From NCBI GenBank assembly GCA_046545575.1, contig JBKGZM010000001.1:2729-66728 (forward strand): DNA of 64,000 nucleotides, read 5' to 3'. Source of the DNA: Dehalococcoidia bacterium (GTDB lineage Bacteria > Chloroflexota > Dehalococcoidia > SZUA-161 > SpSt-899). The notes below the pieces were generated by a model, which was given only the letters and a program-made list of their open reading frames with translations, was not told the DNA's origin and did no database searches. A program made the translations under genes and the position numbers. Below are positions 22,306-44,114 of the stretch, in pieces (the stretch's first letter is position 1; each line of letters begins with the position of its first letter).

Positions 22306-22875
22306 ATGACAGCAATTACAGAAACGCCACCAACTCGCGAGAAAACATTCTTGGAGGAAGTTGCGTCAAGACCCGGGGGAGAGGATATCAACTCCTGCAT
22401 CCAATGCGGAACATGCACGGCATCCTGCCCCAATGCCAAGATAATGGATTACACTCCTCGGGAAATGATTGCTTTAACACGCGCGGGAGAGCGCAAGAAG
22501 GTCCTGTCCAGCAACTCAATGTGGGTATGTGCCTCCTGCTACATGTGTACTGTGCGGTGCCCCCGAGACATCAAGCCGACAGACCTGATGCATGCTTTCG
22601 AGGCACTGGCCATCCAGCATGGGATGGCTACAAGGCGAGTAGGTACTCCTATTGCTTATCAAGCGTTTGTTGACTCAATTAAGAGTAATGGCCGGGTCCA
22701 TGAGTTCGGCATGATGTTCAAATACTACTTAAAGACCAATCCCTTCGCCGCCCTTAAAATGTCCGGCTTAGCGCTAAAATTACTAACTCACAGGCGAATG
22801 TCCCTTACAGCCGACAAGATAAAGGGCGTTGATCAAGTCAAGAAAATCGCTGAAAAGGCGAAAACTCTGGAATGA
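22306..22875 (+). CDS. hdrC: Heterodisulfide reductase subunit C-like (2x[4Fe-4S])
   Basis: CIQCGTCTASCPNA and CASCYMCTVRCPRDI in a 189-aa protein upstream of hdrB. Confidence 0.85.
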   Translation: MTAITETPPTREKTFLEEVASRPGGEDINSCIQCGTCTASCPNAKIMDYTPREMIALTRAGERKKVLSSNSMWVCASCYMCTVRCPRDIKPTDLMHAFEALAIQHGMATRRVGTPIAYQAFVDSIKSNGRVHEFGMMFKYYLKTNPFAALKMSGLALKLLTHRRMSLTADKIKGVDQVKKIAEKAKTLE

Positions 22876-22913
22876 CCCTTTACCCGCCAATAGTTACAGT
22901 TAGGAGGTAGCCG

Positions 22914-23786
22914 ATGAGATACTATTCATATTTTCCAGGTTGCTCGGCCAAGGGCACAGCGGTAGGATATGAAATCTCCATCCAGGCCATTAAGAGTTCG
23001 CTGGAGATGGATCTGGCTGAGCTGGACGATTGGAACTGCTGTGGGACTACGCCTTACGCTTCTACAGACGAGCTGGGGGCAATATGCATCGCCGCTCGCA
23101 ACCTGGCATTGGCGGAGAAAACTGGTCTCGATCTGGTGACCGCTTGCAGCGCGTGTTATGTCACACTTGCGAGAGCAAATTCCTTTATCAAGCTCTATCC
23201 TGACATCAAGGAAAAGGTAAATCAGGCCCTGTCAGAGGTCGGACTGGAGTATAAAGGGACCGTTAAGGTGCGGCACTTGCTGGAGGTCATAATCAACGAT
23301 ATCACCCTGGAATCCGTTTCTTCCAAGGTGATAAACCCACTCGATGGACTTAGGGTGGCTCCATACTATGGATGCCAATTGGTCCGCCCCGATCTGGGAT
23401 TTGATGACCCCGAGAATCCCCAAACACTGGATCGTTTGATCACGAGCCTGGGAGCAGAGGCCACACCTTTCCAAAATAAGAACCGGTGCTGCGGAAGCTC
23501 TCTAGTGATAGCGGAGCCAAAGGTAGCATTCAGACTCATTCGTGATGTGCTTGCCAGCGCACAAGAGGGCAACGCGCAATGCATAATTACCGCATGTCCA
23601 TTGTGTCAGACCAATCTGGATGCTTATCAAGGTATGGTAAACAGCGAGTTCAAAACCAAGTTCGATCTCCCTGTTTTATTCTTCACCCAGCTTATCGGCC
23701 TTGCTCTGGGTATCGACGCCAAGACATTGGGCATAGACACAGCAATAGTATCGCCCAAGAAGGTAATGGCAGCGATAACGAAATAA
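22914..23786 (+). CDS. hdrB: Heterodisulfide reductase subunit B-like (two CCG domains)
   Basis: NCCGTTPY...CSACY and RCCGSS...CPLCQ. Confidence 0.85.
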   Translation: MRYYSYFPGCSAKGTAVGYEISIQAIKSSLEMDLAELDDWNCCGTTPYASTDELGAICIAARNLALAEKTGLDLVTACSACYVTLARANSFIKLYPDIKEKVNQALSEVGLEYKGTVKVRHLLEVIINDITLESVSSKVINPLDGLRVAPYYGCQLVRPDLGFDDPENPQTLDRLITSLGAEATPFQNKNRCCGSSLVIAEPKVAFRLIRDVLASAQEGNAQCIITACPLCQTNLDAYQGMVNSEFKTKFDLPVLFFTQLIGLALGIDAKTLGIDTAIVSPKKVMAAITK

Positions 23787-23863
23787 CTGTGGCAACCGAG
23801 GTCGGTTAATCAACCTTAACTGACCTTTAATCAATGAAATCAATATACAAAAGGGGTGTGCAA

Positions 23864-26800
23864 ATGGAAGAGCCAAGAATCGGTGTTTACATTTGTCACT
23901 GTGGAAGTAACATCGCGGGAACGGTGAACTGTGAGGACGTATCCGCTTTCGCGCAGGATCTGCCTGGAGTGACCATAGCTCGCGACTACAAGTACATGTG
24001 TTCGGACCCCGGGCAGAACCTCATCAAAGAGGACATCAAAAACCTCAATGTCAACCGTGTTGTTGTAGCTTCCTGCTCGCCGCGGATGCACGAACCCACA
24101 TACCGACGCTGTATTCAGGAAGCAGGATTAAATCCATACCTGTTTGAGATGGCCAATATCAGGGAACATTGCTCCTGGGTTCACCCAAACGAACCTGAGA
24201 AAGCTACGGAAAAGGCTAAAGCGCTGGTTCGCGGCGCAGTACAGAAAGTCTACTATCACGAGCCACTGGAGACAAGGGAGGTTCCGGTAAATCCCAGTGT
24301 CTTGATTATGGGTGGAGGAATTGCAGGTATCCAGGCCGCTCTCGAAATCGCCAGTTCTGAAAACAAGGTATACTTGGTAGAACGTGAGCCTTCTATTGGC
24401 GGTCACATGGCTCAACTCGACAAGACCTTCCCTACCCTTGACTGTTCAGCCTGTATCCTCACCCCCAAGATGAGTCTTGTAGGAGCTCATCCAAATATCG
24501 AGCTCCTGACTTACAGTGAGGTAGAAGAGGTAGCAGGCTATGTTGGCAATTTCGAGGTTAAGGTAAGGGAAAAGGCTCGATTTGTCGATGAAGAAAAATG
24601 CACCGGATGCGGTGAATGTACCAGGGCATGTCCTGTAGAAATCCCTTCCAAGTTCGAGTTGGGAATGACCAACACAAAGGCCATAGCAACGTCCTTCGCC
24701 CAGGCCGTTCCCAATGTCGCTTCCATCTATAAACGTGAGGGAGGTGCCTGGCCCCCCTGTCGCTTTACATGCCCCGCCGGAGTAAATGCTCAGGGGTACA
24801 TCGCCCTCATCTCTCAGGGCAATTTCAAGGAAGCGGCCGAGGTCGTGAGAAAAACCATGCCGTTCCCAGGCATTCTGGGGAGGGTATGTACACATCCATG
24901 CGAATCGGAGTGTGAGCGAGCAAAGCTCGATGAACCAATGGCCATCAGGGCTCTTAAGCGTTCAGCTGCTGACTATGAGAGGAAAGTGGGCAGGGAAAAA
25001 GCAAGCCCTGTAGAGATAACCAAGAAAGGGAAGATCGCGGTCGTGGGTTCAGGCCCAGCCGGCCTCGCATGTGCCTATGACCTCATACGCGAAGGATACC
25101 CTGTGACGGTATTTGAGGCAATGCCCGAAGCCGGGGGAATGCTTCGGTACGGCATTCCCGAATATCGCTTGCCAAAGGACGTGCTGGACAGCGAGATCAG
25201 CTACATAGAGGAACTTGGAGTAGAGATCAAGACAAACAATCCGATCAACGATATCGGTCAGCTTTTCAACGAGGGGTATAAAGCCATATTCATGAGTAAC
25301 GGCGCCTGGACAAGCCAGAAGATGAGAATAGAAGGGGAGGATGCAAACGGGGTGCTCCATGCGCTGGACTTCCTGAAGCGCGTCAATTCCGGAGATCAAA
25401 CCCAAATAGGCAAAAAGGTAGCCGTTGTCGGCGGTGGCAATGCTGCCATCGATGCTGCCAGGGTAGCATGGCGATTAGGCGCTGAGGAGGTAAGCATCGT
25501 CTACCGGCGCTCACGGGAAGAGATGCCCGCGGAAAAGAGTGAAATCGAGGAAACTGAAAGGGAAGGTATCAACATACAGTTCCTGGCAGCACCAAACAAA
25601 GTTCTAAGTGAAGGCAATAAGGTCAGTGGCATAGAGTGCACGCGAATGGAACTAGGTGAGCCTGATGCCAGTGGCCGACGTCGGCCCGTGCCCGTAAAAG
25701 GGTCTGAGTTCACTCTGGATGTAGACAACGTCATCATTGCCATCGGACAGGGCGTCGACAAGGAAGCACTGCCTGAGGAGCTTGAATACACTCAATGGAA
25801 TACCCTCTCAGTTGATGAGATTACTTTGGAGACGAACATCGACGGCGTATTCGCCGGTGGTGACGTAGTTTCCGGCCCAGCCTCGGTAATCGACGCTGTT
25901 GCTGCAGGCAAGGAAGCCGCTACATCAATTGACCGCTACATCAGGGATGTGGACATGAAAGAGGGCAGACCAGAGGAGAGGAGAAAGGTGTCCGATGTGC
26001 CCAAAGAGGGTGTTGCCAGTGCTTCGAGAAGTTCCATGTCCACCATTGAAGTTGATAAGCGGGTCCGTTCCTTCGCTGAAGTCGAGCAGGGCTTTGATGA
26101 AAATACAGCAATAGAGGAAGCCAAGCGCTGCTTGAATTGTGCCGGGTGTGCGGATTGTCGAGAGTGCGAGAAGGTCTGTGAGGCCGGGGCCATCAATCAC
26201 AGCATGCAGGACGAGATCCTGAACCTGGAAGTAGGAAACATAATCGTAACCACTGGCTTCCAAGCCTTCGACCCAACACCGATTTACCAATACGGGTATC
26301 ATCGCCTGGATAATGTTGTTACCGGCCTGGAGTTCGAACGTCTGATAAGCGCATCAGGTCCAACCGAAGGGCATATAGCACTTAAGAATGGAGAAGAGCC
26401 GGATAGTGTGGCTATTATCCATTGTGTAGGAAGCCGGGATGCCAAATACCACGAGTACTGTTCGCGGGTCTGCTGCATGTATTCCATGAAGTATGCCCAT
26501 TTACTCAGGGAACACGTCCCGAACGCCAGGATATATGAATTCTACATTGACCTGAGATGCTTCGGCAAAGGCTATGAAGAATTCTACAACCGGATGCTGA
26601 AGGAGGATATCACCTTCATTCGCGGCCGGCCCGGCGAGATCACACAGGAGGACGGCAAACTGGTAGTCCATGCCGAAGATACGCTGGCTTCCATCATGCG
26701 TGATATACCGGTCGACATGGCAATCCTGAGCATAGGCCTGGAGCCACAGGAAGATGCCGATGAGGTCTCCAAACTACTCAAGATGAGCAGAAGCGCGGAT

Positions 26801-27205
26801 GGCTTCTTTATGGAGAGTCATCCCAAGCTAGAGCCAGTATCCACACCCACAAAGGGAGTATTCATCGCCGGCTGCTGCCAGGGGCCCAAGGATATCCCTG
26901 ACACGGTAGCTCAGGCTTCAGGGGCAGCGGCGGAGGCTCTGGCCATGATCAGCAGAGGAAAGGTTGAAGTGGAAGCAGCTACCTCCGTGGTGGACGAAGA
27001 CCTTTGCTCCGGCTGCAAAACATGTGTATCACTATGCCCCTATGGCGCGATTTCGTTCGATGAAGAGAAAAAGGTGGCTGTCATAAACGAGGTGCTGTGC
27101 GAAGGGTGTGGTCTATGTGCCGCTACCTGCCCTTCAGGCGCTATCAAGGCCAGGCACTTCACGACACAGGAGATCATGGCGCAGATCGAGGGCATTCTGG
27201 TTTGA
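23864..27205 (+). CDS. hdrL: HdrA-like flavoprotein with an inserted NfnB/GltD-like NAD(P)H:FAD module (HdrL-type)
   Basis: HdrA N-terminus (RIGVYICHCGSNIAG; IMGGGIAGIQAA). A GltD-like insert spans about 24750-25950 (PPCRFTCPAG; VVGSGPAGLACAYDL; VVGGGNAAIDAAR). It is followed by an HdrA C-terminus (HCVGSRD..YCSRVCCMY) and a terminal 2x[4Fe-4S] region (CSGCKTCVSLCP; CEGCGLCAATCP). ATG 23864 follows AAAGGGG. Confidence 0.8.
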   Translation: MEEPRIGVYICHCGSNIAGTVNCEDVSAFAQDLPGVTIARDYKYMCSDPGQNLIKEDIKNLNVNRVVVASCSPRMHEPTYRRCIQEAGLNPYLFEMANIREHCSWVHPNEPEKATEKAKALVRGAVQKVYYHEPLETREVPVNPSVLIMGGGIAGIQAALEIASSENKVYLVEREPSIGGHMAQLDKTFPTLDCSACILTPKMSLVGAHPNIELLTYSEVEEVAGYVGNFEVKVREKARFVDEEKCTGCGECTRACPVEIPSKFELGMTNTKAIATSFAQAVPNVASIYKREGGAWPPCRFTCPAGVNAQGYIALISQGNFKEAAEVVRKTMPFPGILGRVCTHPCESECERAKLDEPMAIRALKRSAADYERKVGREKASPVEITKKGKIAVVGSGPAGLACAYDLIREGYPVTVFEAMPEAGGMLRYGIPEYRLPKDVLDSEISYIEELGVEIKTNNPINDIGQLFNEGYKAIFMSNGAWTSQKMRIEGEDANGVLHALDFLKRVNSGDQTQIGKKVAVVGGGNAAIDAARVAWRLGAEEVSIVYRRSREEMPAEKSEIEETEREGINIQFLAAPNKVLSEGNKVSGIECTRMELGEPDASGRRRPVPVKGSEFTLDVDNVIIAIGQGVDKEALPEELEYTQWNTLSVDEITLETNIDGVFAGGDVVSGPASVIDAVAAGKEAATSIDRYIRDVDMKEGRPEERRKVSDVPKEGVASASRSSMSTIEVDKRVRSFAEVEQGFDENTAIEEAKRCLNCAGCADCRECEKVCEAGAINHSMQDEILNLEVGNIIVTTGFQAFDPTPIYQYGYHRLDNVVTGLEFERLISASGPTEGHIALKNGEEPDSVAIIHCVGSRDAKYHEYCSRVCCMYSMKYAHLLREHVPNARIYEFYIDLRCFGKGYEEFYNRMLKEDITFIRGRPGEITQEDGKLVVHAEDTLASIMRDIPVDMAILSIGLEPQEDADEVSKLLKMSRSADGFFMESHPKLEPVSTPTKGVFIAGCCQGPKDIPDTVAQASGAAAEALAMISRGKVEVEAATSVVDEDLCSGCKTCVSLCPYGAISFDEEKKVAVINEVLCEGCGLCAATCPSGAIKARHFTTQEIMAQIEGILV

Positions 27206-27223
27206 GCTTTGTCATGTGTGGAT

Positions 27224-28312
27224 ATGGAACAGATTCAGTCTCCGCGGATGCAGCAAGAGCAGCGGCATGTTCTTCGCATAGAGCAAGCCAACCTCCTGCA
27301 GATGTCTGAGGAGGAATTTCAGAGCTTAGTTGCTCAAATAGAAAAGAGCTCTCTCTTTAAGAAGCTCTACAAATCAGAAAACATAATCCATTACCAGCGA
27401 TTCCCCAAGACTGATATCTCCGCTCGCTGCTACGAGCTCAAGGAAAACATCCTCGCTGACGAGGGCTCTCTCGATGTGGAGCCCCTTCTGCAGCAGAGAG
27501 GGGAAGTGGTGGAGCTTATACAAAAGATAGGGCTGGAGAAGTTCAAGGAGTTCTTCCTCTTTCCCGACCCCGAGATTACCGCAGAGCATATCGCACAGGA
27601 GTGTAATATAAGTCTCTCCCAGGTGCACAGGATAAACGAATTCATCACCGACTTTTCCGCCATGAGCGAGTTCTATCATCCTTCAGCGATCAGCCCGGAG
27701 GAGAGAGTCCATTACTCCAAGGTCGCTTCAATAGAACGAGCACATGACGGCTTTGTTATCGGCTATTACCCCCCATCACTTGCCAGGGGAAGATATTCGA
27801 TTAACTACGAAAAATTTGAGAAAATAATAAATGAGAGGTTAACTGAGGCAGAGGGTAAGGAAGCAAGGAAGCTGTTCAGGAAACTGGAGTTGATAAATGT
27901 GCGCAAAGATACGCTGACGCAGATATTGCAAAATGTGGTGGAGAAGCAGAAACTATATTTGGACACCGGGGATGCGATGTCTCTCCTTCCGTTAAGTCAG
28001 AAGGAAATGGCCAACCAAATAGGACTGGATTCAAGCACGGTCAGCCGTACTATTCACGGGAAAAGCGTGGAGACGCCATGGGGAGAGGAGAAACCGATTA
28101 AAGATTTCTTCGCACATCCCAAGGACTTCAAGAAAGAGGCGCTTAAGAGAGTCTTTGAATCCGAAAGACGACCTCTCAGCGACCAGGCGATCAAAGAGAA
28201 ACTGGAGGAGTCAGGTATATTACTTTCCCGGCGCTCGATAGTGAACTTGAGGCAGGAGCTGAGAATGCCTTCATCACGAAAACGGTTTAAGAAACAGGAA
28301 AGCACAAAATGA
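27224..28312 (+). CDS. rpoN: Compact sigma-54 (RpoN) family sigma factor homolog
   Basis: Gln/Leu-rich region I (MQQEQRHVLRIEQANLLQMSEEEF). HTH segment LPLSQKEMANQIGLDSSTVSRTIHGKSVETPWGEEKPIKDFF. RpoN-box-like C-terminus PLSDQAIKEKLEESGILLSRRSIVNLRQELRMPSSRKR, compared with the canonical ARRTVAKYR. About 362 aa. Confidence 0.75.
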   Translation: MEQIQSPRMQQEQRHVLRIEQANLLQMSEEEFQSLVAQIEKSSLFKKLYKSENIIHYQRFPKTDISARCYELKENILADEGSLDVEPLLQQRGEVVELIQKIGLEKFKEFFLFPDPEITAEHIAQECNISLSQVHRINEFITDFSAMSEFYHPSAISPEERVHYSKVASIERAHDGFVIGYYPPSLARGRYSINYEKFEKIINERLTEAEGKEARKLFRKLELINVRKDTLTQILQNVVEKQKLYLDTGDAMSLLPLSQKEMANQIGLDSSTVSRTIHGKSVETPWGEEKPIKDFFAHPKDFKKEALKRVFESERRPLSDQAIKEKLEESGILLSRRSIVNLRQELRMPSSRKRFKKQESTK

Positions 28313-36322: not shown

Positions 36323-36363
36323 TTGACAAGAAAGACTCGCATACGGTATACTGTATGCATACA
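36323..36363 (+). promoter_or_regulatory. Sigma-70-like promoter with overlapping palindromic operator candidates upstream of the ArsR-family gene
   Basis: TTGACA, an 18-nt spacer and TATACT. GCATAC-N8-GTATGC (36339-36358) and the 12-nt palindrome TGTATGCATACA (36352-36363) overlap the -10 and +1 positions. Confidence 0.5.
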
Positions 36364-36388
36364 TGCGCATATAGGAAATTAGTTTGTC

Positions 36389-37237: not shown

Positions 37238-37258
37238 ATTAAAAGGAAAGGAGCGAAC

Positions 37259-38236
37259 ATGGCTAAGCCGAAGGTTGCTTTTTACTGGAACGCATCGTGT
37301 GGCGGATGTGAGGAGACGGTCGTTGATCTGAATGAAGATATACTGAAGGTCGCAGACGCCGTCGACATAGTGCTATGGCCTGTCGCGCTGGATTTCAAGA
37401 GGAAGGATGTCGAAGCCCTGGCCGACGGGGAGATAGCAGTCAGCTTCATCAACGGGTCCATAAGACTGGAAGAACAGGAGGACATGGTAAAACTCCTCAG
37501 GCAGAAATCCGGACTGGTAGTGGCGTTTGGGGCATGTGCTCACATCGGCGGAATACCCGGACTGGGGAATTTCTGGAACAGGGAAACGATATTCGATCGG
37601 GCATATAAGGAAGTCCCAAGCGTTGAGAATCCGGAGGGAACACTGCCTCAGGAGAAAACAACAGTTGACGGCTGTGAACTAACCCTCCCGGAATTCTACG
37701 ACACAGTCAAGACATTGGACCAGACAATTGACGTGGATTACTACCTCCCGGGATGCCCCCCACCACCCGACCTCGTCATGAATGCCATAAACGCGATTTT
37801 GCAAGGCGATTTGCCCGAAAAGGGATCAGTACTCGCCCCTGCCAAAGCCCTGTGCGATACATGCCCTAGAAGGGACTCAAAGCCGGAGAAAATATCGATC
37901 TCCGAGGTGAAGAGGCCGTGGGAAATCAAGATGGACCCTGAGACATGCTTCCTGGCACAGGGCGTGATCTGTCTCGGTCCCGCTACTCGCTCAGGATGCG
38001 GTGAGACCTGTATCAGAGCCAACATGCCCTGCCGTGGATGCTTCGGCCCGGTGGACGGAGTTGCGGATCAGGGCGCAAGGGCCCTCTCGGCAATCGCCTC
38101 CATACTGGGACTCGAGGGCGAGGAAAATATGCCCGAGCAGGACGTCCAGAAGCTGGTCGATCAAATCGTAGACCCCGCTGGGACATTCTACAGGTTCGGT
38201 CTCCCAGCTTCTCTACTTCGAAGAAAGAAGATGTAG
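37259..38236 (+). CDS. mvhG: [NiFe] hydrogenase small subunit, group 3c (MvhG-like)
   Basis: KVAFYWNASCGGCEETVVDL. At 325 aa it is much larger than HoxY. It has C-terminal Cys clusters (CDTCPR; CLGPATRSGCGETCIRANMPCRGCFGP). Confidence 0.85.
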   Translation: MAKPKVAFYWNASCGGCEETVVDLNEDILKVADAVDIVLWPVALDFKRKDVEALADGEIAVSFINGSIRLEEQEDMVKLLRQKSGLVVAFGACAHIGGIPGLGNFWNRETIFDRAYKEVPSVENPEGTLPQEKTTVDGCELTLPEFYDTVKTLDQTIDVDYYLPGCPPPPDLVMNAINAILQGDLPEKGSVLAPAKALCDTCPRRDSKPEKISISEVKRPWEIKMDPETCFLAQGVICLGPATRSGCGETCIRANMPCRGCFGPVDGVADQGARALSAIASILGLEGEENMPEQDVQKLVDQIVDPAGTFYRFGLPASLLRRKKM

Positions 38237-38268
38237 TAACTCGGAACTGACAGCACAAGGAGGAGATA

Positions 38269-39735
38269 ATGAAACAGATAACCATAGATCCGATTACCAG
38301 ACTTGAGGGACATGGCAAGATCGAGATCTTCCTCAATGATGAGGGAGAGGTCCATCAAGCTTATCTCCAGGTACCCGAACTTCGGGGTTTTGAGAAGTTC
38401 TCTGAGGGAAGGCCGGCAGAGGAGATGCCCAGGATCACCACCATGATCTGCGGGGTCTGTCCCACTGCTCACCACATGGCCGCCACCAAAACGCTCGATG
38501 ACCTGTGGAAGGTGGAGCCAACCTCAACGGCGAAGAAAATAAGACGTTTGATGTACAATGCCTTCCAGGCGGAAGACCATCTGCTCCACTTCTTCTTCCT
38601 CGGCGGCCCCGATTTCATCGTCGGCCCGACGGCACCGGCTGCGGAAAGGAATATACTGGGCGTTGTCGGCAAAGTCGGGACGGAGGCCGGTGGCAAAGTA
38701 ATAGAGGCCAGAAAGAGGCTCAGAAACGTGCTGAGGATAATCGGGGGCAAACCGGTTATGCCCACCTGTGGGCTTCCCGGTGGCGTGTCGAAGGCGATTA
38801 CCGAGGAGGAAAGACAAAGTTGTATAGAGGCAGGGGAATATGCAGTTGACCTTTGCCAGTTTGCCTTAAAGGCCTTCGATGATATAGTGCTGAACAACAA
38901 GGAATATGTCGACCTTATAACTGGTGACGCCTTTACCCACAGGACCTACTACATGGGGCTCGTGGATGAAAACAACAAGGTAGACTTCTACGATGGCATG
39001 ATCAGAGTGGTTGACCCCAATGGTAAGGAATTCGCCAAATTCAGGCCACAGGAATACCTCGACCACGTCAGGGAGCATGTCGAACCGTGGAGCTACATCA
39101 AGTTCTGTTATCTTAAGAACGTGGGATGGAATGGTTTCACCGATGGGGAAGACAGCGGGGTTTACAGAGTGGCACCACTCGCCCGACTCAACGCAGCGGA
39201 TGGGATGCCCACCCCGCTTGCTCAGGAAGCTTACAACAAGATGTACGAGACCCTGGGAGGCAAGCCGGTCCACCATACTCTGGCTTACCACTGGGCCCGG
39301 CTGATTGAGGCGCTTTCCGCTTCGGAGCAGGTGCTGGACCTTGCCAAAGATCCTGAGCTTACCTCCGATGACATCGTAAACCTGCCAACTGCAACTCCGA
39401 AGGAGGGCGTCGGTGTGGTTGAAGCTCCCAGAGGGACCCTGTTCCATCACTATGAGACAGATGAGAAAGGTATCCTGACAAAGGTTAATTTGATCGTGGC
39501 CACAACCAATAACGCTGCTCCCATCAATATGTCGATCGAGAAAGCCGCCAGAGCACTCATACACAACGGAGAGGTTAACGACGGGCTTCTCAACATGGTT
39601 GAGATGGGATTCAGGGCTTACGATCCTTGCCACGCCTGTGCAACCCATAGCTTGCCAAGTGAAACGCCGCTGGAGGTCACAGTCCGCGATTCCCAGGGCA
39701 ATGAGCTTAGAAAATTGACCAGAAACCTCGGTTAA
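38269..39735 (+). CDS. mvhA: [NiFe] hydrogenase large subunit, group 3c (MvhA-like)
   Basis: RLEGHGKIEI, N-terminal Ni-binding motif MICGVCPTAHH, C-terminal DPCHACATH and a cleavable extension. Confidence 0.9.
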   Translation: MKQITIDPITRLEGHGKIEIFLNDEGEVHQAYLQVPELRGFEKFSEGRPAEEMPRITTMICGVCPTAHHMAATKTLDDLWKVEPTSTAKKIRRLMYNAFQAEDHLLHFFFLGGPDFIVGPTAPAAERNILGVVGKVGTEAGGKVIEARKRLRNVLRIIGGKPVMPTCGLPGGVSKAITEEERQSCIEAGEYAVDLCQFALKAFDDIVLNNKEYVDLITGDAFTHRTYYMGLVDENNKVDFYDGMIRVVDPNGKEFAKFRPQEYLDHVREHVEPWSYIKFCYLKNVGWNGFTDGEDSGVYRVAPLARLNAADGMPTPLAQEAYNKMYETLGGKPVHHTLAYHWARLIEALSASEQVLDLAKDPELTSDDIVNLPTATPKEGVGVVEAPRGTLFHHYETDEKGILTKVNLIVATTNNAAPINMSIEKAARALIHNGEVNDGLLNMVEMGFRAYDPCHACATHSLPSETPLEVTVRDSQGNELRKLTRNLG

Positions 39736-39978: not shown

Positions 39979-41796
39979 ATGAGTTCTCAAGCTGAAGCAC
40001 AGATCAAAGAGGTGATTGATCAGTCTACCGGAAAAGTATACCTGCCCCCTTGCCAAATAGCCTGCCCCGTCGGGGAGGATATCCAGCGTACAAACACCCT
40101 GATATCAATGCTCCCCCCGGATCCCGAGAAGGCCAAAGGCCTGATACAAGAGATAGGGGATGAGATTTACGAGAAGAACCCCCTTTTCACAGTTTGTGGT
40201 TACATTTGTGGCCTTTGTGAGAATGAGTGTAACTACAGAGATCACACAGGCTCTATAAGACGAACAAGGCTCAAGCGCTTCCTTACCGAGTACTATCTCC
40301 CGTATCTGGACCAAAAGCCAGCATTCGCTCCGCCTACCAAAGAAAAGGTAGCTGTCATCGGAGGCGGTCCGGGAGGTTTAATGTGTGCGTACATGCTGAG
40401 CAAGCAAGGCTACGCCGTGACCATCCTCGAGAGGGGAGATCGGCTCGGAGGAGCTCTTAGATATATTCCTCTTTACCGTCTTACTGAAAATATTACGGAC
40501 AGGACGATAAATAATTTGGTTCGAATCGCCAATATAGATGTTCAGTTCGGCGTAACAATGGGCAATGGAGGAAAAACGCTCGCCGACCTCAAGAGTGAAG
40601 GTTACCAGGCAGTATTCGTTGCCACGGGCACCCATCTCCCCCGCCCCCTCACATTCGGCAGGGAAAAAGTCGAAGGAACAGACCTGGAAGGCGTCATGTT
40701 CGGGTTGAGTCTCCTTCAAGAAGTGAATCAGGGGCTCGTCTCACCTGACCGCTTCCAGGGTAAGAGGGTAATCGTCATCGGCGGCGGCAACGTGGCTTTT
40801 GATGCAGCCAGGACAGCACGGAGGCTCGGTGGAGATGTCCGGCTCGTGTGTTTGGAATCCAAAGATAAATCGTCAAAAGACGGCATTCCTGCCGATACGG
40901 AAGAGATAGAAGGCGCTACTGAGGAGGGAATCAGCATAACATACTCGCGTGGGGTCAGGGAGATAGTCAGTGAGAACGGGAAATTCAAAGCGATCAAGTC
41001 GCCACGATGCACATCGGTGTTCGATGAGAACGGATTCAATCCTCAGTTCGACGAAAGCGACGAAATGTACATGGAAGGAGACGTCCTCCTGGTCACAATC
41101 GGGCAGGCTCCGGAGCGCGATTTTTTCCAGCAGGAAGAATTGCTCAACGAGCGCGGAAGGCTGGATGTTGATCAGACCACCCTTATGAGCAACCGCAAAG
41201 AAGGGGTCTTCATCGGGGGCGACGTCAGGCGTGTTGGTTTTGCCGCCGATGCAATGCAGGAGGGAGCGACCGCAGCCGAGTCGATAGACCGGTATATCAG
41301 AGGAGTAGCCCTCAACTCGGATAGGGAGAAGGAATACGAAAAGGCGGACATCCCTCAATGTTTGCAGTACAAACCCCAGCCTGAACTGACATTAGCGCCG
41401 GCGGAAGAAAGGATGAACTTCCAGCCCTTTGAGGAGCTGCTCACTCTGGAAGAAGCCATCAAGGAAGCCCGCAGGTGTCTTGATTGCGGACCCTGTGAAA
41501 GTTGTAAAGCATGTGTTAAACTAGAGCTACAATCAGAGTTGCCACAGGTCACAGTTAATGAGGATCTGTGCAGCGGATGTGGCGTCTGTGTTGCCGTCTG
41601 TCGATATGATGCTCCCAGGCTCGAGCATTCTGGAGAGGCTCTTAAGGCCATTATAGATGACATCAAGTGCAAGCGATGCGGGCTATGTGTAAGTGCGTGC
41701 CCCTCCGGAGCTATAAACACAACAGACGGACTTACGGAGTTTATAGATACGTTGACCAGCAGCGAGGCAGCGCTAATAGCCCAGAGCACAGCGTGA
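39979..41796 (+). CDS. NfnB/GltD-like FAD-dependent NAD(P)H oxidoreductase with a C-terminal 2x[4Fe-4S] ferredoxin domain
   Basis: N-terminal Fe-S motifs (PPCQIACPVGEDI; CGYICGLCENEC), VAVIGGGPGGLMCAYML, VIGGGNVAFDAAR, and C-terminal CSGCGVCVAVC and CKRCGLCVSACP. Confidence 0.8.
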   Translation: MSSQAEAQIKEVIDQSTGKVYLPPCQIACPVGEDIQRTNTLISMLPPDPEKAKGLIQEIGDEIYEKNPLFTVCGYICGLCENECNYRDHTGSIRRTRLKRFLTEYYLPYLDQKPAFAPPTKEKVAVIGGGPGGLMCAYMLSKQGYAVTILERGDRLGGALRYIPLYRLTENITDRTINNLVRIANIDVQFGVTMGNGGKTLADLKSEGYQAVFVATGTHLPRPLTFGREKVEGTDLEGVMFGLSLLQEVNQGLVSPDRFQGKRVIVIGGGNVAFDAARTARRLGGDVRLVCLESKDKSSKDGIPADTEEIEGATEEGISITYSRGVREIVSENGKFKAIKSPRCTSVFDENGFNPQFDESDEMYMEGDVLLVTIGQAPERDFFQQEELLNERGRLDVDQTTLMSNRKEGVFIGGDVRRVGFAADAMQEGATAAESIDRYIRGVALNSDREKEYEKADIPQCLQYKPQPELTLAPAEERMNFQPFEELLTLEEAIKEARRCLDCGPCESCKACVKLELQSELPQVTVNEDLCSGCGVCVAVCRYDAPRLEHSGEALKAIIDDIKCKRCGLCVSACPSGAINTTDGLTEFIDTLTSSEAALIAQSTA

Positions 41797-41841: not shown

Positions 41842-42060
41842 ATGCCCATATATGAGTATGTGTGCCCGAATTGCAAGTTGAAATTCGAGATGCTCCGTAC
41901 AATGAGCCAGGCAGATGCAGTGGCTACATGCCCCGAGTGCAGCACCGGGTCTCGAAGGGTTCCCTCAACATTCTGCGGGAACTCCGAAGATGGGCCCATA
42001 GGGGGTAGCTCGTGCGGCACCTGCTCTTCCGCTAGCTGCAGCACCTGCTCTTTAGGATAG
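41842..42060 (+). CDS. FmdB-family zinc-ribbon protein (CxxC_CxxC_SSSS)
   Basis: MPIYEYVCPNCKLKFE...CPECS with a Cys/Ser-rich tail. Confidence 0.8.
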   Translation: MPIYEYVCPNCKLKFEMLRTMSQADAVATCPECSTGSRRVPSTFCGNSEDGPIGGSSCGTCSSASCSTCSLG

Positions 42061-42063
42061 AAA

Positions 42064-42300
42064 ATGGAAGCCGAAGAGATGCGCTTCATTTGCCAGTCAT
42101 GCGGGAAAGAGGTAGAGGATTCCTCTGGAGAACCCCCATGTGAGGTTCTCAAGGGCTGGGTTACGGTTTCCCATTGGTACGGACGAGGCGATGTTGATCA
42201 CTATACATTCTGTTCATTTGCGTGCCTTAGATCCTGGGTGGATGCCCAGGTTCCGCAGATACCTAACATATTCCTAAAATCCTTTGACGAAGGAGACTAA
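42064..42300 (+). CDS. Small Cys-containing hypothetical protein (78 aa)
   Basis: An ORF packed tightly between neighbours (4 nt after the FmdB stop and abutting the next ATG), with CQSC...C...CSFAC. No family recognised. Confidence 0.5.
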   Translation: MEAEEMRFICQSCGKEVEDSSGEPPCEVLKGWVTVSHWYGRGDVDHYTFCSFACLRSWVDAQVPQIPNIFLKSFDEGD

Positions 42301-43467
42301 ATGGATATGGTTAACGAGGCTCAGAAACAGGTTGGCGTCCACATAAACGACGAGTACTGCAGTCGGTGTTTCATCTGTTCCTCTCTTTGTCCCTTCGACG
42401 CGATAAGGAAAGACCCGGAAACTGACAAGATGGTTCTGGACATCGAGAAATGCCAGACATGCGGGCTGTGTTACTCCTCATGTCCCGCCCAGGCTATCGA
42501 CATCATCTACTACGACATGAATTCCCTAACCAGGTACCTGGAAAGGGCAAAGCAGGAATACGCCAGCGACACCTTGATGATCATGTGTAAGGGATGCGCC
42601 CCTGAGACCGAGGTTGTCGAGAAGATATTCGGGATATCCAAATTTGTGCCTTTGTCCGTACCATGCGTAGGACGAGTGCCGGAGAATGTCTTCTTGAAAG
42701 CCATATCCGCTCTGGGAATGAAGAAGATATATGTCCTTGCCTGTGAAGAGGACTATTGCCGTTTCGAGCGTGGAAGCTCAGTGGCAACCCGGAAGATATT
42801 AGCGCTTAATCTCCTTCTGGAGCAGCTTGGCTATGGCAAGCCCATTACCCTGAGACAAAATAGCCTTAAGGTAACGGTGAACAAGGATAAATGTATCGCC
42901 TGTGGCAACTGTGCATATCACTGCCCCTACGGTGCGGCTACTCTGATAAGCGGAACAGCAGATATAGATGAGGCATCCTGTCATGGCTGTGGACTTTGCG
43001 TGAGCTTGTGCCCGGCCTTCGCGCTGGAACTGGATTACTGGGAAGGTGACCGCATATCTGCCCAGGTCTCGAGCCTGATGTCGGGGAAGGCAAAGCCAAA
43101 ATTTCTTGTCTTTCGCTGCCAATGGTCTGTTTTCCCCTCTCTTAACGGGACCACTGACCCGGATGTAGGAATCATAGAGTTGCCGTGTGCCGGCAGAGTC
43201 GATGCCCTGCATGTGCTGGAAGCACTCGACAAAGGAGCAGAGGGCGTTATGATAGCCGCCTGTCCCGAAGAGGACTGCAAATCGGAGACAGGAAGCAAGG
43301 AAGCCGAGAGATCAATAACAGCGTTAAAGAAAACGCTCAGCCAGATCGGCTTGGACGAAAAGCTCCACTTCTACTCAGTATCACCACGCTATCCCGGAGC
43401 GTTTGATGACGCTCTGAAAGATTTCAAGGAGAAATTAGCAAATCCCTCAAAGGAGACTGCGGAATGA
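42301..43467 (+). CDS. Tandem (2x[4Fe-4S] ferredoxin + MvhD-like) iron-sulfur protein
   Basis: CSRCFICSSLCP and CQTCGLCYSSCP, then a degenerate MvhD-like unit (VPCVGRVPENVFLKAISALGMKKIYVLACEEDYC). This is followed by CIACGNCAYHCP and CHGCGLCVSLCP and a canonical MvhD unit (FRCQWS..LPCAGRVDALHVLEALDKGAEGVMIAACPEEDC). Confidence 0.75.
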   Translation: MDMVNEAQKQVGVHINDEYCSRCFICSSLCPFDAIRKDPETDKMVLDIEKCQTCGLCYSSCPAQAIDIIYYDMNSLTRYLERAKQEYASDTLMIMCKGCAPETEVVEKIFGISKFVPLSVPCVGRVPENVFLKAISALGMKKIYVLACEEDYCRFERGSSVATRKILALNLLLEQLGYGKPITLRQNSLKVTVNKDKCIACGNCAYHCPYGAATLISGTADIDEASCHGCGLCVSLCPAFALELDYWEGDRISAQVSSLMSGKAKPKFLVFRCQWSVFPSLNGTTDPDVGIIELPCAGRVDALHVLEALDKGAEGVMIAACPEEDCKSETGSKEAERSITALKKTLSQIGLDEKLHFYSVSPRYPGAFDDALKDFKEKLANPSKETAE

Positions 43468-44114
43468 TTATAACAACACAGAAACCGCTCGACGAGATCC
43501 TTGACTTCTTATCGCCCTACACGAATGTTTTGATCGCCGGTTGCGACGGCTGCACTCAGCCCCCAAGGGGGCTAAGAGAGGCTCAAACCCTTGCTCAGAT
43601 CATTGAGCTAGCGGGGCAGTTGAGAGGCAAGAAATTCAATCTCAAAACAATGACCGTACCCAAGCAATGTGACTCCTACATCACCCTGACCGCCATGGAG
43701 CCTCATGTGAAGGACGTGGAAGCTATTCTGTCACTGGCCTGCGGACTCGGGCCGCAGACCATAAGCCAGGTTCTGCCTGATCTATCCGCATTCCCGGCTC
43801 AAAACACCGTGTTCATGGGAACGGAGACCCGGGAAGAAGATGTCATCGAGGAAAGGTGCGCCGCCTGCGGCGACTGCGTTCTGGGACTGACCGGCGGGAT
43901 CTGCCCTATTTCCCGGTGTGCTAAAAGCCTGCTTAACGGCCCATGTGGTGGCACTAGACCAGATGGCAAATGCGAAATAGACCCGGAAAAGGACTGTGCT
44001 TGGTACCTCATCATCAAACGACTGGAGAAACTGGGCCAACTCTCCGCGTTGGAAGAAATCCAGCCACCTAAGAATTACGGGCAGCTAGTGAGCGGGAAGG
44101 TCAGCAAGCACTGA
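43464..44114 (+). CDS. metV: MetV-like protein (methylenetetrahydrofolate reductase C-terminal-domain-like zinc/Fe-S protein)
   Basis: LIAGCDGCTQ ... CAACGDCVLGLTGGICPISRCAKSLLNGPCGGTRPDGKCEIDPEKDCAWY. Confidence 0.7.
   Translation: MIITTQKPLDEILDFLSPYTNVLIAGCDGCTQPPRGLREAQTLAQIIELAGQLRGKKFNLKTMTVPKQCDSYITLTAMEPHVKDVEAILSLACGLGPQTISQVLPDLSAFPAQNTVFMGTETREEDVIEERCAACGDCVLGLTGGICPISRCAKSLLNGPCGGTRPDGKCEIDPEKDCAWYLIIKRLEKLGQLSALEEIQPPKNYGQLVSGKVSKH

What the first reader, a model, noticed from the sequence alone, without database searches (positions are those of the whole stretch)
22306..44114. One-strand 22-kb supercluster stacking four flavin/Fe-S electron-transfer systems with three embedded regulators
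All 20 genes are co-oriented. The clustered modules are HdrC-HdrB-HdrL, a HoxEFU-like NAD(P)H diaphorase, MvhD-MvhG-MvhA, an extra NfnB-like flavoprotein, a tandem ferredoxin-MvhD protein and MetV. The diaphorase normally partners group 3d hydrogenases, yet here it sits next to a group 3c-type (Mvh) enzyme, separated only by an ArsR regulator. The combination suggests a modular complex linking H2, NAD(P)H, ferredoxin and a heterodisulfide-type acceptor, or alternative assemblies chosen by regulation. The physiological acceptor is not evident from the window.
Basis: inference. Interest (0 to 1): 0.6.

Follow-up and report, generated by a model that had tools for sequence, protein, structure and literature searches.

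The report
Regulated hydrogenase–Hdr–NADH redox gene island
An ordinary bacterial hydrogenase/heterodisulfide-reductase operon has been pulled apart here by a putative hydrogen-sensing regulatory cassette and an NADH/ferredoxin electron-bifurcating module, which gives a new arrangement of known parts and a testable case of how an anaerobe may switch between H2, NAD(P)H and ferredoxin.

Summary
The cluster is real, with corrections. There are 19 supported co-oriented genes at 22306-44114 and five regulatory genes, not three.

The 'HoxEFU diaphorase' is not a group-3d Hox module. It is a Bfu-type (HydCBA-like) NADH/ferredoxin bifurcating core. All B2-cluster ligands are conserved, and its BfuA lacks the A3 cluster (Type 2).

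MvhA is a group-3c (Mvh) enzyme. It sits deep inside a bacterial clade whose genes lie in hdrCBA-mvhDGA operons.

In 53 of 62 related loci mvhD directly follows hdrA. Here 9.6 kb lies between hdrL and mvhD: a sigma54-like gene, an [FeFe]-hydrogenase-like histidine kinase, NtrC, REC, bfuCBA and arsR.

A strong terminator, one sigma-54 promoter (conserved in a rearranged homologous locus) and a sigma-70-like promoter with a palindrome predict at least three or four transcription units, not one operon.

Elsewhere the same modules recur shuffled. In several contigs HdrA is split and its halves are fused to BfuC and BfuA next to mvhDGA. So coupling of Hdr, Mvh and Bfu-type modules is plausible, but it is not shown for this genome.

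No metF is in the window, and the acceptor stays unknown. This is a new variant of known kinds, of moderate interest.

The parts
22306..23786 (+). hdrC (22306-22875) and hdrB (22914-23786)
   Evidence: Pfam Fer4_8 and CCG x2. NCBIfam HdrC/HdrB are the best families but score below cut-off. HdrC has 8 Cys in two CxxCxxCxxxCP motifs. HdrB has two C...CCG...CxxC motifs.
23834..27205 (+). hdrL: HdrA with an NfnB/GltD-like NAD(P)H module inserted (about residues 300-771)
   Evidence: Pfam and NCBIfam HdrA2 at 887 bits plus PRK12771 at 543 bits. Residues 11-299 match 5ODC_A 1-289. Residues 772-1122 match 8RVV_A 290-642. The insert is closest to the GltD-like domains of 9BOV_A, 9N5U_A and 8OH5_C and to NfnB 4YLF_B. 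Full-length homologues at 63-69% identity are L086-L095.
27209..28312 (+). sigma-54-like protein (C-terminal/DNA-binding half only)
   Evidence: Pfam Sigma54_DBD only. TIGR02395 matches model positions 190-433 at 106 bits against a cut-off of 277. A 55% identical homologue sits in the L086 cassette.
28309..30234 (+). [FeFe]-hydrogenase-like sensor fused to a histidine kinase (putative H2/redox sensor)
   Evidence: Fer4, Fe_hyd_lg_C, FeS, HisKA and HATPase_c. Motifs SSTCPAFV, GPCISKK and FCEGCINGP are present; Thr stands at the position I take, from my own knowledge of catalytic [FeFe] hydrogenases, to be the proton-relay Cys.
30274..31674 (+). NtrC-type sigma-54-dependent response regulator
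   Evidence: Response_reg, Sigma54_activat, AAA_lid_14 and HTH_8.
31768..31835 (+). intrinsic terminator (31768-31810, 20-bp stem plus T run) followed by the -24/-12 promoter TGGCAACAAAATTGC (31821-31835)
   Evidence: It is the only such site in the cluster. A near-identical site, TGGCAAGAAAATTGC, stands at the same place before the REC gene in L086.
31848..32936 (+). REC-domain protein with a duplicated 4-Cys module (ATG at 31863, behind GGAGGTGA, is the likely start)
   Evidence: Response_reg; sequence. Homologues are in L086 and L091. A REC::BfuC fusion is in L003.
33063..36117 (+). bfuC (33063-33530), bfuB (33561-35489), bfuA (35482-36117): Type 2 Bfu NADH/ferredoxin core
   Evidence: Pfam. 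The best PDB match of BfuB is 7T2R_B at 823 bits. A. mobile positions C438, C476, H525, C531, C536, A202 and M204 are all conserved. BfuA's best match is 9MQX_A, and it has no His-ligated A3 motif. Tree.
36323..36790 (+). sigma-70-like promoter (TTGACA-18-TATACT, 36323-36352) overlapped by a 20-bp palindrome (36339-36358), then arsR (36389-36790)
   Evidence: HTH_5; a CSVC motif in ArsR. arsR-mvhDGA is conserved in L081/L082.
36824..39735 (+). mvhD, mvhG, mvhA: group 3c [NiFe]-hydrogenase
   Evidence: FlpD at 199 bits, Oxidored_q6 and NiFeSe_Hases. VhuA/VhuG are the best NCBIfam families. PDB matches. Motifs RxCGxC and DPCxxCxxH plus a 28-aa C-terminal extension. Tree. Metatranscriptome contigs of relatives span the D-G and G-A junctions.
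39979..41796 (+). NfnB/GltD-like flavoprotein with a C-terminal 2x[4Fe-4S] domain
   Evidence: A 69% homologue follows mvhA in L085. A 68% homologue follows the REC genes in L086.
41842..42300 (+). two small Cys-rich proteins (Zn_ribbon_8, 72 aa; and a 78-aa protein)
   Evidence: A 55% homologue of the 78-aa protein is in L081.
42301..44114 (+). tandem ferredoxin-MvhD protein (42301-43467) and MetV-like protein (43464-44114)
   Evidence: FlpD x2 with Fer4, and PF12225. The pair is conserved next to mvh in L081/L082 and L085.
48025..52180 (+). hydrogenase maturation genes hycI, hypB and hypF downstream on the same strand
56748..60197 (-). second Fd-MvhD tandem protein heading nfnA-nfnB
   Evidence: The same pairing (Fd-MvhD with an NfnA-like gene) is in L081.

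Best explanation
The locus is the canonical bacterial hdrC-hdrB-hdrA-mvhD-mvhG-mvhA operon, an H2-driven flavin-based bifurcating Mvh-Hdr system, rebuilt in three ways.
1. HdrA carries an in-frame NfnB/GltD-like NAD(P)H module, which makes it HdrL.
2. About 9.6 kb lies between hdrL and mvhD: sigma54-like gene, [FeFe]-hydrogenase-like histidine kinase, NtrC, a sigma-54 promoter, a REC gene, bfuCBA and arsR.
3. An NfnB-like gene, an Fd-MvhD gene and a MetV-like gene follow mvhA.

I read it as a regulated toolkit, not one fixed complex. A single group-3c hydrogenase hands electrons through MvhD-type [2Fe-2S] adaptors (MvhD and the Fd-MvhD proteins) to alternative flavin modules:
- HdrL-HdrBC, with a disulfide-type acceptor plus Fd/NAD(P);
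- the Bfu core, with NAD+ plus Fd;
- NfnB-like/Fd-MvhD/MetV.

The kinase senses H2 or redox state. Through NtrC and the -24/-12 promoter it switches on REC-bfuCBA. ArsR gates mvhDGA separately.

Shown by sequence: gene content, intact cofactor motifs, Bfu and 3c membership, and the promoter/terminator motifs.
Inferred: who binds whom, the direction of electron flow, and the signal sensed.
For: Canonical operon:
- mvhD directly follows hdrA in 53 of 62 related loci with enough downstream sequence.
- mvhD-mvhG follows in 38 of 51, and 27 loci show the full hdrCB-hdrA...mvhDGA set.
- HdrL homologues L087/L088 have hdrC-hdrB-hdrL-mvhD-mvhG contiguous.

Hydrogenase and HdrL:
- MvhA lies inside a 100/100-supported clade of 40 bacterial sequences, most from such loci. 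That clade stands with the archaeal Mvh/Vhu enzymes, across a 100/99 split from HoxH and A. mobile HydL.
- The HdrL insert sits between HdrA residues 289 and 290.

Transcription units:
- Terminator 31768-31810, then the only -24/-12 site of the cluster.
- The same promoter stands in the same position in L086, where the cassette is divergent from hdrL-hdrC-hdrB and drives REC-REC-nfnB-like.
- A sigma-70-like promoter with a palindrome stands before arsR.
- arsR-mvhDGA-FdMvhD-metV is conserved in L081/L082.

Coupling of Bfu with HdrA/MvhD elsewhere:
- HdrA_N::BfuC and BfuA::HdrA_C fusions next to mvhD and mvhG (mvhA as well where the contig reaches it) in L117, L139, L069 and, with HdrA_N as a separate gene, L110. 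L105 and L107 carry the fusions followed by mvhD, and L107 has a divergent mvhDGA.
- The Bam complex is a published precedent (PMC9304861).
- A REC::BfuC fusion behind an NtrC gene is in L003.

Each module is found separately next to Mvh in relatives.
Against: - No transcript data for this organism. The RNA runs held only short contigs from relatives, so the operon boundaries are predictions.
- The window's BfuB is not orthologous to the Hdr-fused Bfu enzymes. It groups with four Chloroflexota trios that have no partner gene nearby, beside the Bam clade. Its partner here is therefore open.
- In MvhA relatives at 80-83% identity the Bfu trio is absent from the mvh neighbourhood. L083/L084 carry a different NuoE/NuoF::NfnB/FdhA set.
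- The sigma54-like protein lacks recognisable activator-interacting and core-binding regions, so its role in the circuit is unclear.
- The final acceptor is unknown.
Confidence: 0.55

Rival explanations
1. One obligate mega-complex: HdrCB-HdrL, BfuCBA, MvhDGA, NfnB-like, Fd-MvhD and MetV assemble together. Three bifurcating flavin sites would then work in series between H2, NAD(P)H, ferredoxin and a disulfide-type acceptor.
For: All genes are adjacent and co-oriented. Split-HdrA/Bfu fusions next to mvh genes elsewhere show that Hdr, Bfu and Mvh can be parts of one enzyme. The one-megadalton Bam complex joins HdrA-like, MvhD-like and Bfu subunits (PMC9304861).
Against: A strong terminator and separate sigma-54 and sigma-70-type promoters divide the cluster. 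The modules occur separately in close relatives. The window's Bfu is not of the Hdr-fused clade. Five regulatory genes argue for differential expression.
Confidence: 0.1
2. A redox island without physical coupling between Bfu and Mvh/Hdr. The enzymes are independent: HdrL-HdrBC with Mvh as a classical pair, Bfu with a partner encoded elsewhere or acting alone on NADH and ferredoxin, and NfnB-like/MetV as a separate reductase. They are neighbours only because they share cofactor supply, hydrogenase maturation genes and regulation.
For: The nearest BfuB relatives (75-77% identity) have no Hdr or Mvh genes within the contig. MvhA relatives lack this trio nearby. The whole 16.5-56.6 kb stretch is co-oriented, housekeeping genes included.
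Against: Sensor/NtrC, Bfu and Hdr-Mvh genes recur together in several unrelated arrangements (L107, L109-L112, L148, L110). In this window the sensor cassette is cotranscribed-by-spacing with hdrCBL and points at bfuCBA. Within the 28-row clade holding the window's BfuB, the identifiable partners are HdrA-like plus MvhD-like proteins.
Confidence: 0.25
3. A Moorella-type methylene-tetrahydrofolate reductase system fed by H2. HdrCB-HdrL, MvhD/Fd-MvhD and MetV serve a MetF encoded elsewhere, so methylene-THF is the missing high-potential acceptor. This names an acceptor and could be true together with the best explanation.
For: hdrCBA, mvhD and metV are the gene set of the Moorella MetFV-HdrABC-MvhD complex, and hdrABC-mvhD-metVF clusters occur in marine Chloroflexi (PMC5736913, PMC5861303). 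The mvhA...Fd-MvhD-MetV-like linkage is conserved in L081/L082 and L085. In L083 the mvh genes lie next to folD and fhs.
Against: No MTHFR (PF02219) domain turned up in any ORF I scanned across the 64 kb; that covers all ORFs I judged to be genes. None appears among the called genes of L081, L083 or L085. metV was found in 0 of 80 HdrA/HdrL loci.
Confidence: 0.15

Closest known systems
MvhADG-HdrABC, the H2-dependent electron-bifurcating heterodisulfide reductase (structures 5ODC, 9SW2), and its bacterial hdrCBA-mvhDGA operons
   Same: All six subunit types are present with intact cofactor motifs. MvhA and MvhG match 5ODC_F and 5ODC_E over their full length (376 and 246 bits). The HdrA halves match 5ODC_A and 8RVV_A. 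MvhA sits inside the clade whose genes mostly lie in such operons.
   Different: HdrA carries an insert of about 470 residues (NfnB/GltD-like). mvhD lies 9.6 kb from hdrL instead of next to it. The organism is probably a Chloroflexota bacterium, not a methanogen, so CoM-S-S-CoB is unlikely to be the substrate.
HdrL of Desulfobacterium autotrophicum and Syntrophobacter fumaroxidans (PMC2702500, PMC5947623)
   Same: A large HdrA-glutamate-synthase/NfnB-like fusion with an NAD(P)H site, encoded near mvhD and hdrBC genes. It is biochemically uncharacterised.
   Different: Here a complete Mvh hydrogenase and a Bfu core lie in the same locus, and no selenocysteine is needed to read the gene. In S. 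fumaroxidans MvhA is absent from the HdrABC/HdrL cluster (PMC5947623).
Bfu family of bifurcating enzymes (Schut et al. 2022, PMC9304861): NiFe-HydABCSL of Acetomicrobium mobile (7T2R) and Bam-Bfu (BamBCDEFGHI)
   Same: The BfuB/BfuC core has all conserved cluster ligands. BfuB's best PDB match is 7T2R_B. As in Bam-Bfu, BfuA is Type 2, and HdrA-like plus MvhD-like proteins are the likeliest neighbours.
   Different: The hydrogenase beside it is not of the A. mobile type. The small subunit has 325 residues and three clusters, against 179 residues in 7T2R_E (85 bits). The large subunit falls on the other side of a 100/99 split. No tungsten, OFOR or FDH catalytic subunit is adjacent. No 'Hdr/Mvh-Bfu' type is listed in that paper.
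HoxEFUYH, the group 3d NAD-reducing hydrogenase (5XF9)
   Same: NuoE-, NuoF- and NuoG-N-terminal-like genes stand near a cytosolic group 3 [NiFe]-hydrogenase.
   Different: MvhA scores 320 bits to 5XF9_D against 373-378 bits to Mvh/Vhu and HydL, and it separates from 5XF9_D in the tree. MvhG aligns to the 189-aa HoxY only over its first ~186 residues, at 48 bits. The 5XF9 HoxF chain is absent from the 60 best BfuB matches shown. An mvhD gene is present.
MetFV-HdrABC-MvhD methylene-THF reductase of Moorella thermoacetica and marine Chloroflexi (PMC5736913)
   Same: hdrC, hdrB, an hdrA-type gene, mvhD and a metV-like gene lie in one locus.
   Different: No metF is in the window or in three related loci. 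A hydrogenase and a Bfu core are present. The MetV-like gene is paired with a tandem Fd-MvhD protein.
Sensory (group C) [FeFe]-hydrogenases such as HydS, encoded beside bifurcating hydrogenases
   Same: An H-domain-like sensor that lacks the proton-relay Cys sits next to a Bfu core. Comparable cassettes are in L110 and in L109, L111, L112 and L148.
   Different: Here the sensor is fused directly to HisKA/HATPase. It works with an NtrC activator and a sigma54-like gene. The enzyme it points at has no [FeFe] catalytic subunit.

Membership tests
Group 3c [NiFe]-hydrogenase (Mvh/Vhu) | Large subunit with N-terminal RxCGxC and C-terminal DPCxxCxxH Ni-Fe ligands and a cleavable C-terminal extension | tested here: met
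   RITTMICGVCPTAHH and DPCHACATH followed by 28 residues. hycI, hypB and hypF lie downstream.
Group 3c [NiFe]-hydrogenase (Mvh/Vhu) | Large subunit groups with Mvh/Vhu, not with HoxH (3d) | tested here: met
   A 100/99 split puts the window with 5ODC_F, 9SW2_F and 9SFI_g, away from 5XF9_D and 7T2R_D. The tree is unrooted and has no 3a/3b rows, but 3a/3b/group 1 chains score at most 119 bits against 373-378.
Group 3c [NiFe]-hydrogenase (Mvh/Vhu) | Long small subunit (about 300 aa, three Fe-S clusters) plus an MvhD [2Fe-2S] subunit | tested here: met
   MvhG has 325 aa and 13 Cys and aligns full-length to 5ODC_E at 246 bits. MvhD scores 199 bits to FlpD.
Group 3c [NiFe]-hydrogenase (Mvh/Vhu) | H2-dependent coupled reduction of ferredoxin and a disulfide through HdrABC | not testable with these tools
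   Needs enzyme assays.
Group 3d NAD-reducing hydrogenase (HoxEFUYH) | HoxH-type large subunit and short HoxY small subunit (about 180-200 aa, one cluster) | tested here: not met
   Tree. MvhG has 325 aa and scores only 48 bits to 5XF9_C, over residues 5-186.
Group 3d NAD-reducing hydrogenase (HoxEFUYH) | HoxF/HoxU-type diaphorase as nearest relatives of the NuoF/NuoG-like genes | tested here: not met
   The top BfuB matches are bifurcating HydB/BfuB chains at 646-823 bits, and the 5XF9 HoxF chain is not among the 60 shown. BfuA scores 122 bits to 9MQX_A against 90 bits to 5XF9_B.
Bfu family (BfuABC; PMC9304861) | BfuB with FMN/NADH domain, N-terminal [2Fe-2S] domain and C-terminal 2x[4Fe-4S] domain; BfuC of NuoE type | tested here: met
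   Complex1_51K, NADH_4Fe-4S, 2Fe-2S_thioredx at 21-101 and Fer4 at 561-613. BfuC scores 161 bits to 2Fe-2S_thioredx.
Bfu family (BfuABC; PMC9304861) | B2 [2Fe-2S] ligands C438, C476, H525, C531, C536 and residues A202/M204 (A. mobile numbering) | tested here: met
   All are conserved in the alignment to 7T2R_B. I could not place F182 by my count.
Bfu family (BfuABC; PMC9304861) | BfuA cluster content decides the type (Type 2 lacks A3 and A5) | tested here: met
   BfuA has 211 aa: Fer2_4 plus one dicluster domain. There is no HxxxCxxCxxxxxC stretch, and only one Cys lies between residues 95 and 141. Best match is the 247-aa 9MQX_A. Cluster content is inferred from sequence.
Bfu family (BfuABC; PMC9304861) | A third-substrate module that feeds BfuA | tested here: inconclusive
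   Candidates nearby are MvhD-MvhGA, Fd-MvhD and HdrL. The closest relatives have none nearby, or have BamBCDEF.
HdrABC / HdrL | HdrB with two CCG domains (ten Cys for two non-cubane clusters) and HdrC with two [4Fe-4S] motifs | tested here: met
   CCG x2 at 90 bits; motifs read.
HdrABC / HdrL | HdrA-type FAD/Fe-S protein; for HdrL, fused to a glutamate-synthase/NfnB-like NAD(P)H domain | tested here: met
   The scores are below NCBIfam equivalog cut-offs, as expected for a chimera.
HdrABC / HdrL | Identity of the disulfide (or other) substrate | not testable with these tools
   No candidate carrier gene (for example a DsrC-type one) was recognised in the window.
MetFV-HdrABC-MvhD methylene-THF reductase | metF (MTHFR TIM barrel) encoded with metV | tested here: not met
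   No PF02219 match in any window ORF scanned or in the called genes of L081, L083 and L085. The rest of the genome was not searchable.
MetFV-HdrABC-MvhD methylene-THF reductase | MetV-type small subunit | tested here: met
   PF12225 at 122 bits; 12 Cys.
Sigma-54-dependent two-component circuit | Kinase, NtrC-type activator with AAA+ domain, and a GG-N10-GC promoter | tested here: met
   The promoter is conserved in L086. The full-length RpoN that such a circuit needs was not found in the window. The local sigma54-like gene is truncated relative to the family model.

The most novel reading that the evidence does not exclude
Mvh, HdrL-HdrBC and the Bfu core form a previously undescribed 'Hdr/Mvh-Bfu' class of [NiFe]-hydrogenase complex. 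Two or three bifurcating flavin sites (HdrA-FAD, NfnB-like FAD, Bfu FMN/Fe-S) would work in series, and assembly would be switched by an H2-sensing kinase. The split-HdrA::Bfu fusions seen in other contigs would be the fused form of the same enzyme.
Probability: 0.15. Interest if true: 0.8.

Novelty: new variant of a known kind. Interest (0 to 1): 0.55.

Why it matters
Three of the four known families of bifurcating flavoproteins (HdrA, NuoF-like/Bfu, NfnB-like) are packed around one hydrogenase, with a putative H2 sensor wired to one of them. If the modules really swap on a shared Mvh through MvhD-type adaptors, this shows how uncultured anaerobes from hypersaline mats balance H2, NAD(P)H and ferredoxin.

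It also gives a defined set of genes for testing two open questions: what HdrL does, and what partners 'orphan' Type 2 Bfu cores. The HdrA::Bfu fusions found in passing suggest a Bfu type that is not in the current classification.

Tried and rejected
I could not look for metF, rpoN, dsrC or paralogues in the rest of the genome.
- RNA evidence: the only RNA runs (X9, X10) held short contigs, mostly 90-95% identical, from relatives. They show mvhD-mvhG and mvhG-mvhA co-transcription in a relative and nothing about the other junctions.
- Rfam and tRNA scans of the window found nothing.
- A second sigma-54 promoter: one mismatch to TGGCACN5TTGC gave only 31821 inside the cluster. Reading the hdrC, arsR and nfnB-like upstream regions by eye found none.
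- The 70-aa ORF at 36170-36382 I rejected as a gene: no family match and it overlies two perfect hairpins.
- The ArsR palindrome is not conserved upstream of arsR in L081.
- I had expected A. mobile-type NiFe subunits in L074 and L077. None passed my MvhA filter, so I dropped the idea.
- 'The supercluster as a whole is conserved': rejected. No fetched locus repeats the full order.
- A joint in run X7 (26919->36857, 38-nt side, at least 85% likeness) looks like the canonical hdrA-mvhD junction of some other organism. It is too weak to use.
- Literature searches for an Hdr-Bfu type, and for a sensory hydrogenase kinase with sigma-54, found nothing. The library lacks most subscription journals, including Appel et al. 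2021.

Full report
OBSERVATION

In order on the + strand:
- hdrC, hdrB and a 1123-aa HdrA that carries an NfnB/GltD-like insert (HdrL);
- a sigma54-like protein that matches only the DNA-binding half of the family;
- a histidine kinase whose N-terminal 400 residues are an [FeFe]-hydrogenase H-domain-like module;
- an NtrC-type activator, then a REC protein with a duplicated 4-Cys module;
- NuoE-, NuoF- and HoxU-like genes;
- arsR, then mvhD, mvhG and mvhA;
- a 605-aa NfnB-like flavoprotein and two small Cys-rich proteins;
- a tandem ferredoxin-MvhD protein and a MetV-like protein.

That makes 19 supported genes and five regulatory genes, not 20 and three. Co-orientation is not a property of the cluster. 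Everything I called from 16558 (CBS, alaS, ruvX, mscS) to 56637 is on the + strand, and GC skew is positive there.

The redox island is longer than the finding. After metV come Rrf2, a permease, SufCD-like genes, hycI, hypB, hypF and a molybdopterin oxidoreductase. On the minus strand there is a second Fd-MvhD gene heading nfnA-nfnB.

Independent assemblies from another study carry the same junctions, so the arrangement is not a chimera. Best hits point to a Chloroflexota (Dehalococcoidia-like) organism from hypersaline mat and lake metagenomes.

THE 'HoxEFU DIAPHORASE' IS A Bfu CORE

The 642-aa NuoF-like protein has the N-terminal [2Fe-2S] and C-terminal 2x[4Fe-4S] domains of bifurcating HydB. 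Its best solved relatives are NiFe-HydABCSL subunit B of A. mobile (823 bits) and [FeFe] HydB chains. The group-3d HoxF chain of 5XF9 is not among the 60 best matches shown.

In the alignment to 7T2R_B, the five ligands of the unusual B2 cluster (C438, C476, H525, C531, C536) and A202/M204 are all conserved. Schut et al. give these as hallmarks of bifurcating BfuB (PMC9304861).

The 211-aa HoxU-like protein lacks the His-ligated A3 motif and resembles a 247-aa BfuA (9MQX_A). In that paper's terms it is Type 2.

Around 80 genomic homologues the E-F-U trio is always intact, but its neighbours vary:
- BamBCDEF (class II benzoyl-CoA reductase);
- 2-oxoacid:ferredoxin oxidoreductase genes;
- GltB-like genes;
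- HdrA/MvhD genes;
- or nothing recognisable.

In a BfuB tree the window groups with four Chloroflexota trios that have no partner gene nearby. This group sits beside the Bam clade, inside a 97%-supported set of 28.

THE HYDROGENASE IS GROUP 3c

MvhA has intact Ni-Fe ligand motifs and a C-terminal extension. MvhG is a full-length three-cluster small subunit: 246 bits to 5ODC_E, against 85 bits to the 179-aa A. mobile HydS and 48 bits to HoxY.

The large subunit alone scores almost equally to A. mobile HydL and to Mvh/Vhu (373-378 bits), and lower to HoxH (320 bits). I built a tree from 41 sequences taken from fetched loci plus five PDB sequences recovered from the printed alignments. It places MvhA inside a 100/100 clade of 40 bacterial sequences, most from hdrCBA-mvhDGA loci. 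That clade stands with the archaeal Mvh/Vhu enzymes, and a 100/99 split separates them from HoxH, A. mobile HydL and one Hox-like sequence.

Caveats: the tree is unrooted, the reference branches are long, and there are no 3a/3b rows. Those groups score at most 119 bits.

WHAT THE LOCUS IS

A metagenome scan with HdrL returned 80 loci:
- mvhD follows hdrA directly in 53 of the 62 loci with enough downstream sequence;
- mvhD-mvhG follows in 38 of 51;
- 27 loci show the whole hdrC-hdrB-hdrA...mvhD-mvhG-mvhA set, often followed by hycI.

True HdrL homologues (63-69% identity) keep this order: L087 and L088 read hdrC-hdrB-hdrL-mvhD-mvhG. The window is therefore that canonical operon with 9.6 kb inserted between hdrL and mvhD, plus a tail.

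The tail is itself conserved with Mvh in relatives at 80-83% identity:
- arsR-mvhD-mvhG-mvhA-FdMvhD-MetV in L081/L082;
- mvhG-mvhA-NfnB-like-...-mvhD-FdMvhD-MetV in L085.

The regulatory cassette is conserved with HdrL in a different geometry. In L086 the order is sigma54-like, kinase, NtrC, a -24/-12 site, REC, REC, NfnB-like. The cassette runs divergently from hdrL-hdrC-hdrB.

PREDICTED TRANSCRIPTION UNITS
- hdrC to ntrC are spaced by 47 nt or less, or overlap. They end at a 20-bp-stem terminator (31768-31810).
- Eleven bases later stands TGGCAACAAAATTGC, the only such site in the cluster. L086 has TGGCAAGAAAATTGC at the equivalent place.
- After bfuA come two perfect hairpins, then TTGACA-18-TATACT overlapped by a 20-bp palindrome, then arsR.
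- A 243-nt gap precedes the NfnB-like gene.

I therefore expect at least three or four units. This remains a prediction, because the RNA runs held only fragments from relatives.

EVIDENCE THAT SUCH MODULES WORK TOGETHER

In L117 and L139 the order is hdrC, hdrB, an HdrA N-half fused to BfuC, BfuB, BfuA fused to the HdrA C-half, mvhD, mvhG, and mvhA where the contig reaches it. L110 has the BfuA::HdrA_C fusion with a HydS-like sensor gene, a PHP-domain gene and an ATPase-domain gene (HATPase_c) inside the split. L105, L107 and L069 have shorter or longer versions, with BfuB::NfnB fusions and HK/NtrC genes nearby.

The split point in HdrA is the place where HdrL carries its insert, between residues 289 and 290 of the solved HdrA. 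From my memory of the Mvh-Hdr structure paper, this lies in or at the end of the inserted ferredoxin domain.

L003 has an NtrC gene followed by a REC::BfuC fusion, BfuB and BfuA. This ties the REC gene of the window to the Bfu core.

These are fusion-type arguments for Hdr-Bfu-Mvh coupling in other lineages. They do not transfer cleanly, because the window's BfuB is not in the clade of the Hdr-fused enzymes.

MECHANISM I COMMIT TO (confidence 0.55)

This is a regulated toolkit built on Mvh-Hdr. Mvh oxidises or evolves H2. MvhD-type [2Fe-2S] adaptors, of which the island has one single and two tandem forms, connect it to three alternative modules:
- HdrL-HdrBC, to the Bfu core, or to NfnB-like/Fd-MvhD/MetV.

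The kinase, NtrC and the -24/-12 promoter raise REC-bfuCBA in response to H2 or redox state. ArsR gates the hydrogenase genes.

The cofactor motifs and family memberships are shown by sequence. The contacts, the direction of electron flow and the sensed signal are inferred.

The acceptor is unknown. No MTHFR domain is in the window or in three related loci.

NOVELTY

Each family is known:
- HdrL: PMC2702500 and PMC5947623.
- Bfu: PMC9304861 and PMC8880783.
- Bacterial and Chloroflexi Hdr-MvhD-MetVF clusters: PMC5736913.
- Mvh-Hdr: PMC5861303.

What is new is the arrangement. A 3c hydrogenase, HdrL and a Type 2 Bfu core stand in one locus, with a kinase-fused H-domain sensor and a sigma-54 switch inserted into the canonical operon. 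I found no description of an Hdr/Mvh-linked Bfu type, but the searchable library is incomplete.

Noticed in passing
L139:2822-11065; L117:1826-7350; L110:1975-11062; L105 and L107:7266-14999; L069:8778-17995: HdrA is split. Its N-half is fused to BfuC (a separate gene in L110) and its C-half to BfuA, with BfuB between them. mvhD and mvhG, and mvhA where the contig reaches it, follow directly in L139, L117, L110 and L069. L105 and L107 carry the fusions followed by mvhD only, and L107 has a divergent mvhDGA. The split lies at the position where HdrL carries its NfnB-like insert. No such 'Hdr-Bfu' type is listed in PMC9304861.
   Followed up: partly
L003:69-5261: In a Pirellulales MAG (BfuB 75% identical to the window's), an NtrC-type activator is followed by a REC::BfuC fusion (Response_reg plus 2Fe-2S_thioredx, 386 aa), then BfuB and BfuA. 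This suggests the REC domain acts on the enzyme itself.
   Followed up: partly
L086:873-13954: The closest HdrL locus has the same cassette: sigma54-like, H-domain kinase, NtrC, the site TGGCAAGAAAATTGC, REC-Cys, REC and a 745-aa NfnB-like gene. It runs divergently from hdrL-hdrC-hdrB. The promoter is conserved across about 60% protein identity.
   Followed up: yes
window 27209-28312: The sigma54-like protein matches only model positions 190-433 of RpoN. It has no recognisable activator-interacting or core-binding domain. It starts 3 nt after the hdrL stop codon.
   Followed up: partly
window 36150-36219 and 36339-36358: Two perfect GC-rich hairpins (12 and 13 bp) without T runs follow bfuA. 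A 20-bp palindrome, GCATACGGTA|TACTGTATGC, overlaps the -10 of the arsR promoter. The palindrome is not conserved in L081.
   Followed up: partly
window 56748-60197 (minus strand): A second tandem Fd-MvhD protein (395 aa) heads nfnA-nfnB. The same pairing of Fd-MvhD with an NfnA-like gene stands next to hyp genes in L081. MvhD-type adaptors therefore also accompany Nfn.
   Followed up: partly
window 45297-46292: A permease of the ArsP_1 family with an inserted YHS/TRASH metal-binding domain sits between Rrf2 and SufCD-like genes, upstream of hycI and hypB. It may be a metal supply route for the hydrogenase.
   Followed up: no
L083:8359-21464: In a relative (MvhA 80% identical), mvhGA-hycI-mvhD is followed by NuoE, a 1047-aa NuoF::NfnB fusion, an FdhA-type BfuA, two folD genes and fhs. 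That is a hydrogenase beside an Fdh/Nfn-type Bfu and Wood-Ljungdahl genes.
   Followed up: no
window 26919 -> 36857 in run X7: One freshwater-sediment contig joins the end of hdrL-like sequence to the start of mvhD-like sequence and skips 9937 nt. This is what the canonical hdrA-mvhD order in another organism would give. The shorter side is only 38 nt at 85% or more likeness.
   Followed up: no
window 31706-31737: A further perfect palindrome (ggtaggccaggccgacgtcggcctggcctacc) lies between the ntrC stop codon and the main terminator.
   Followed up: no
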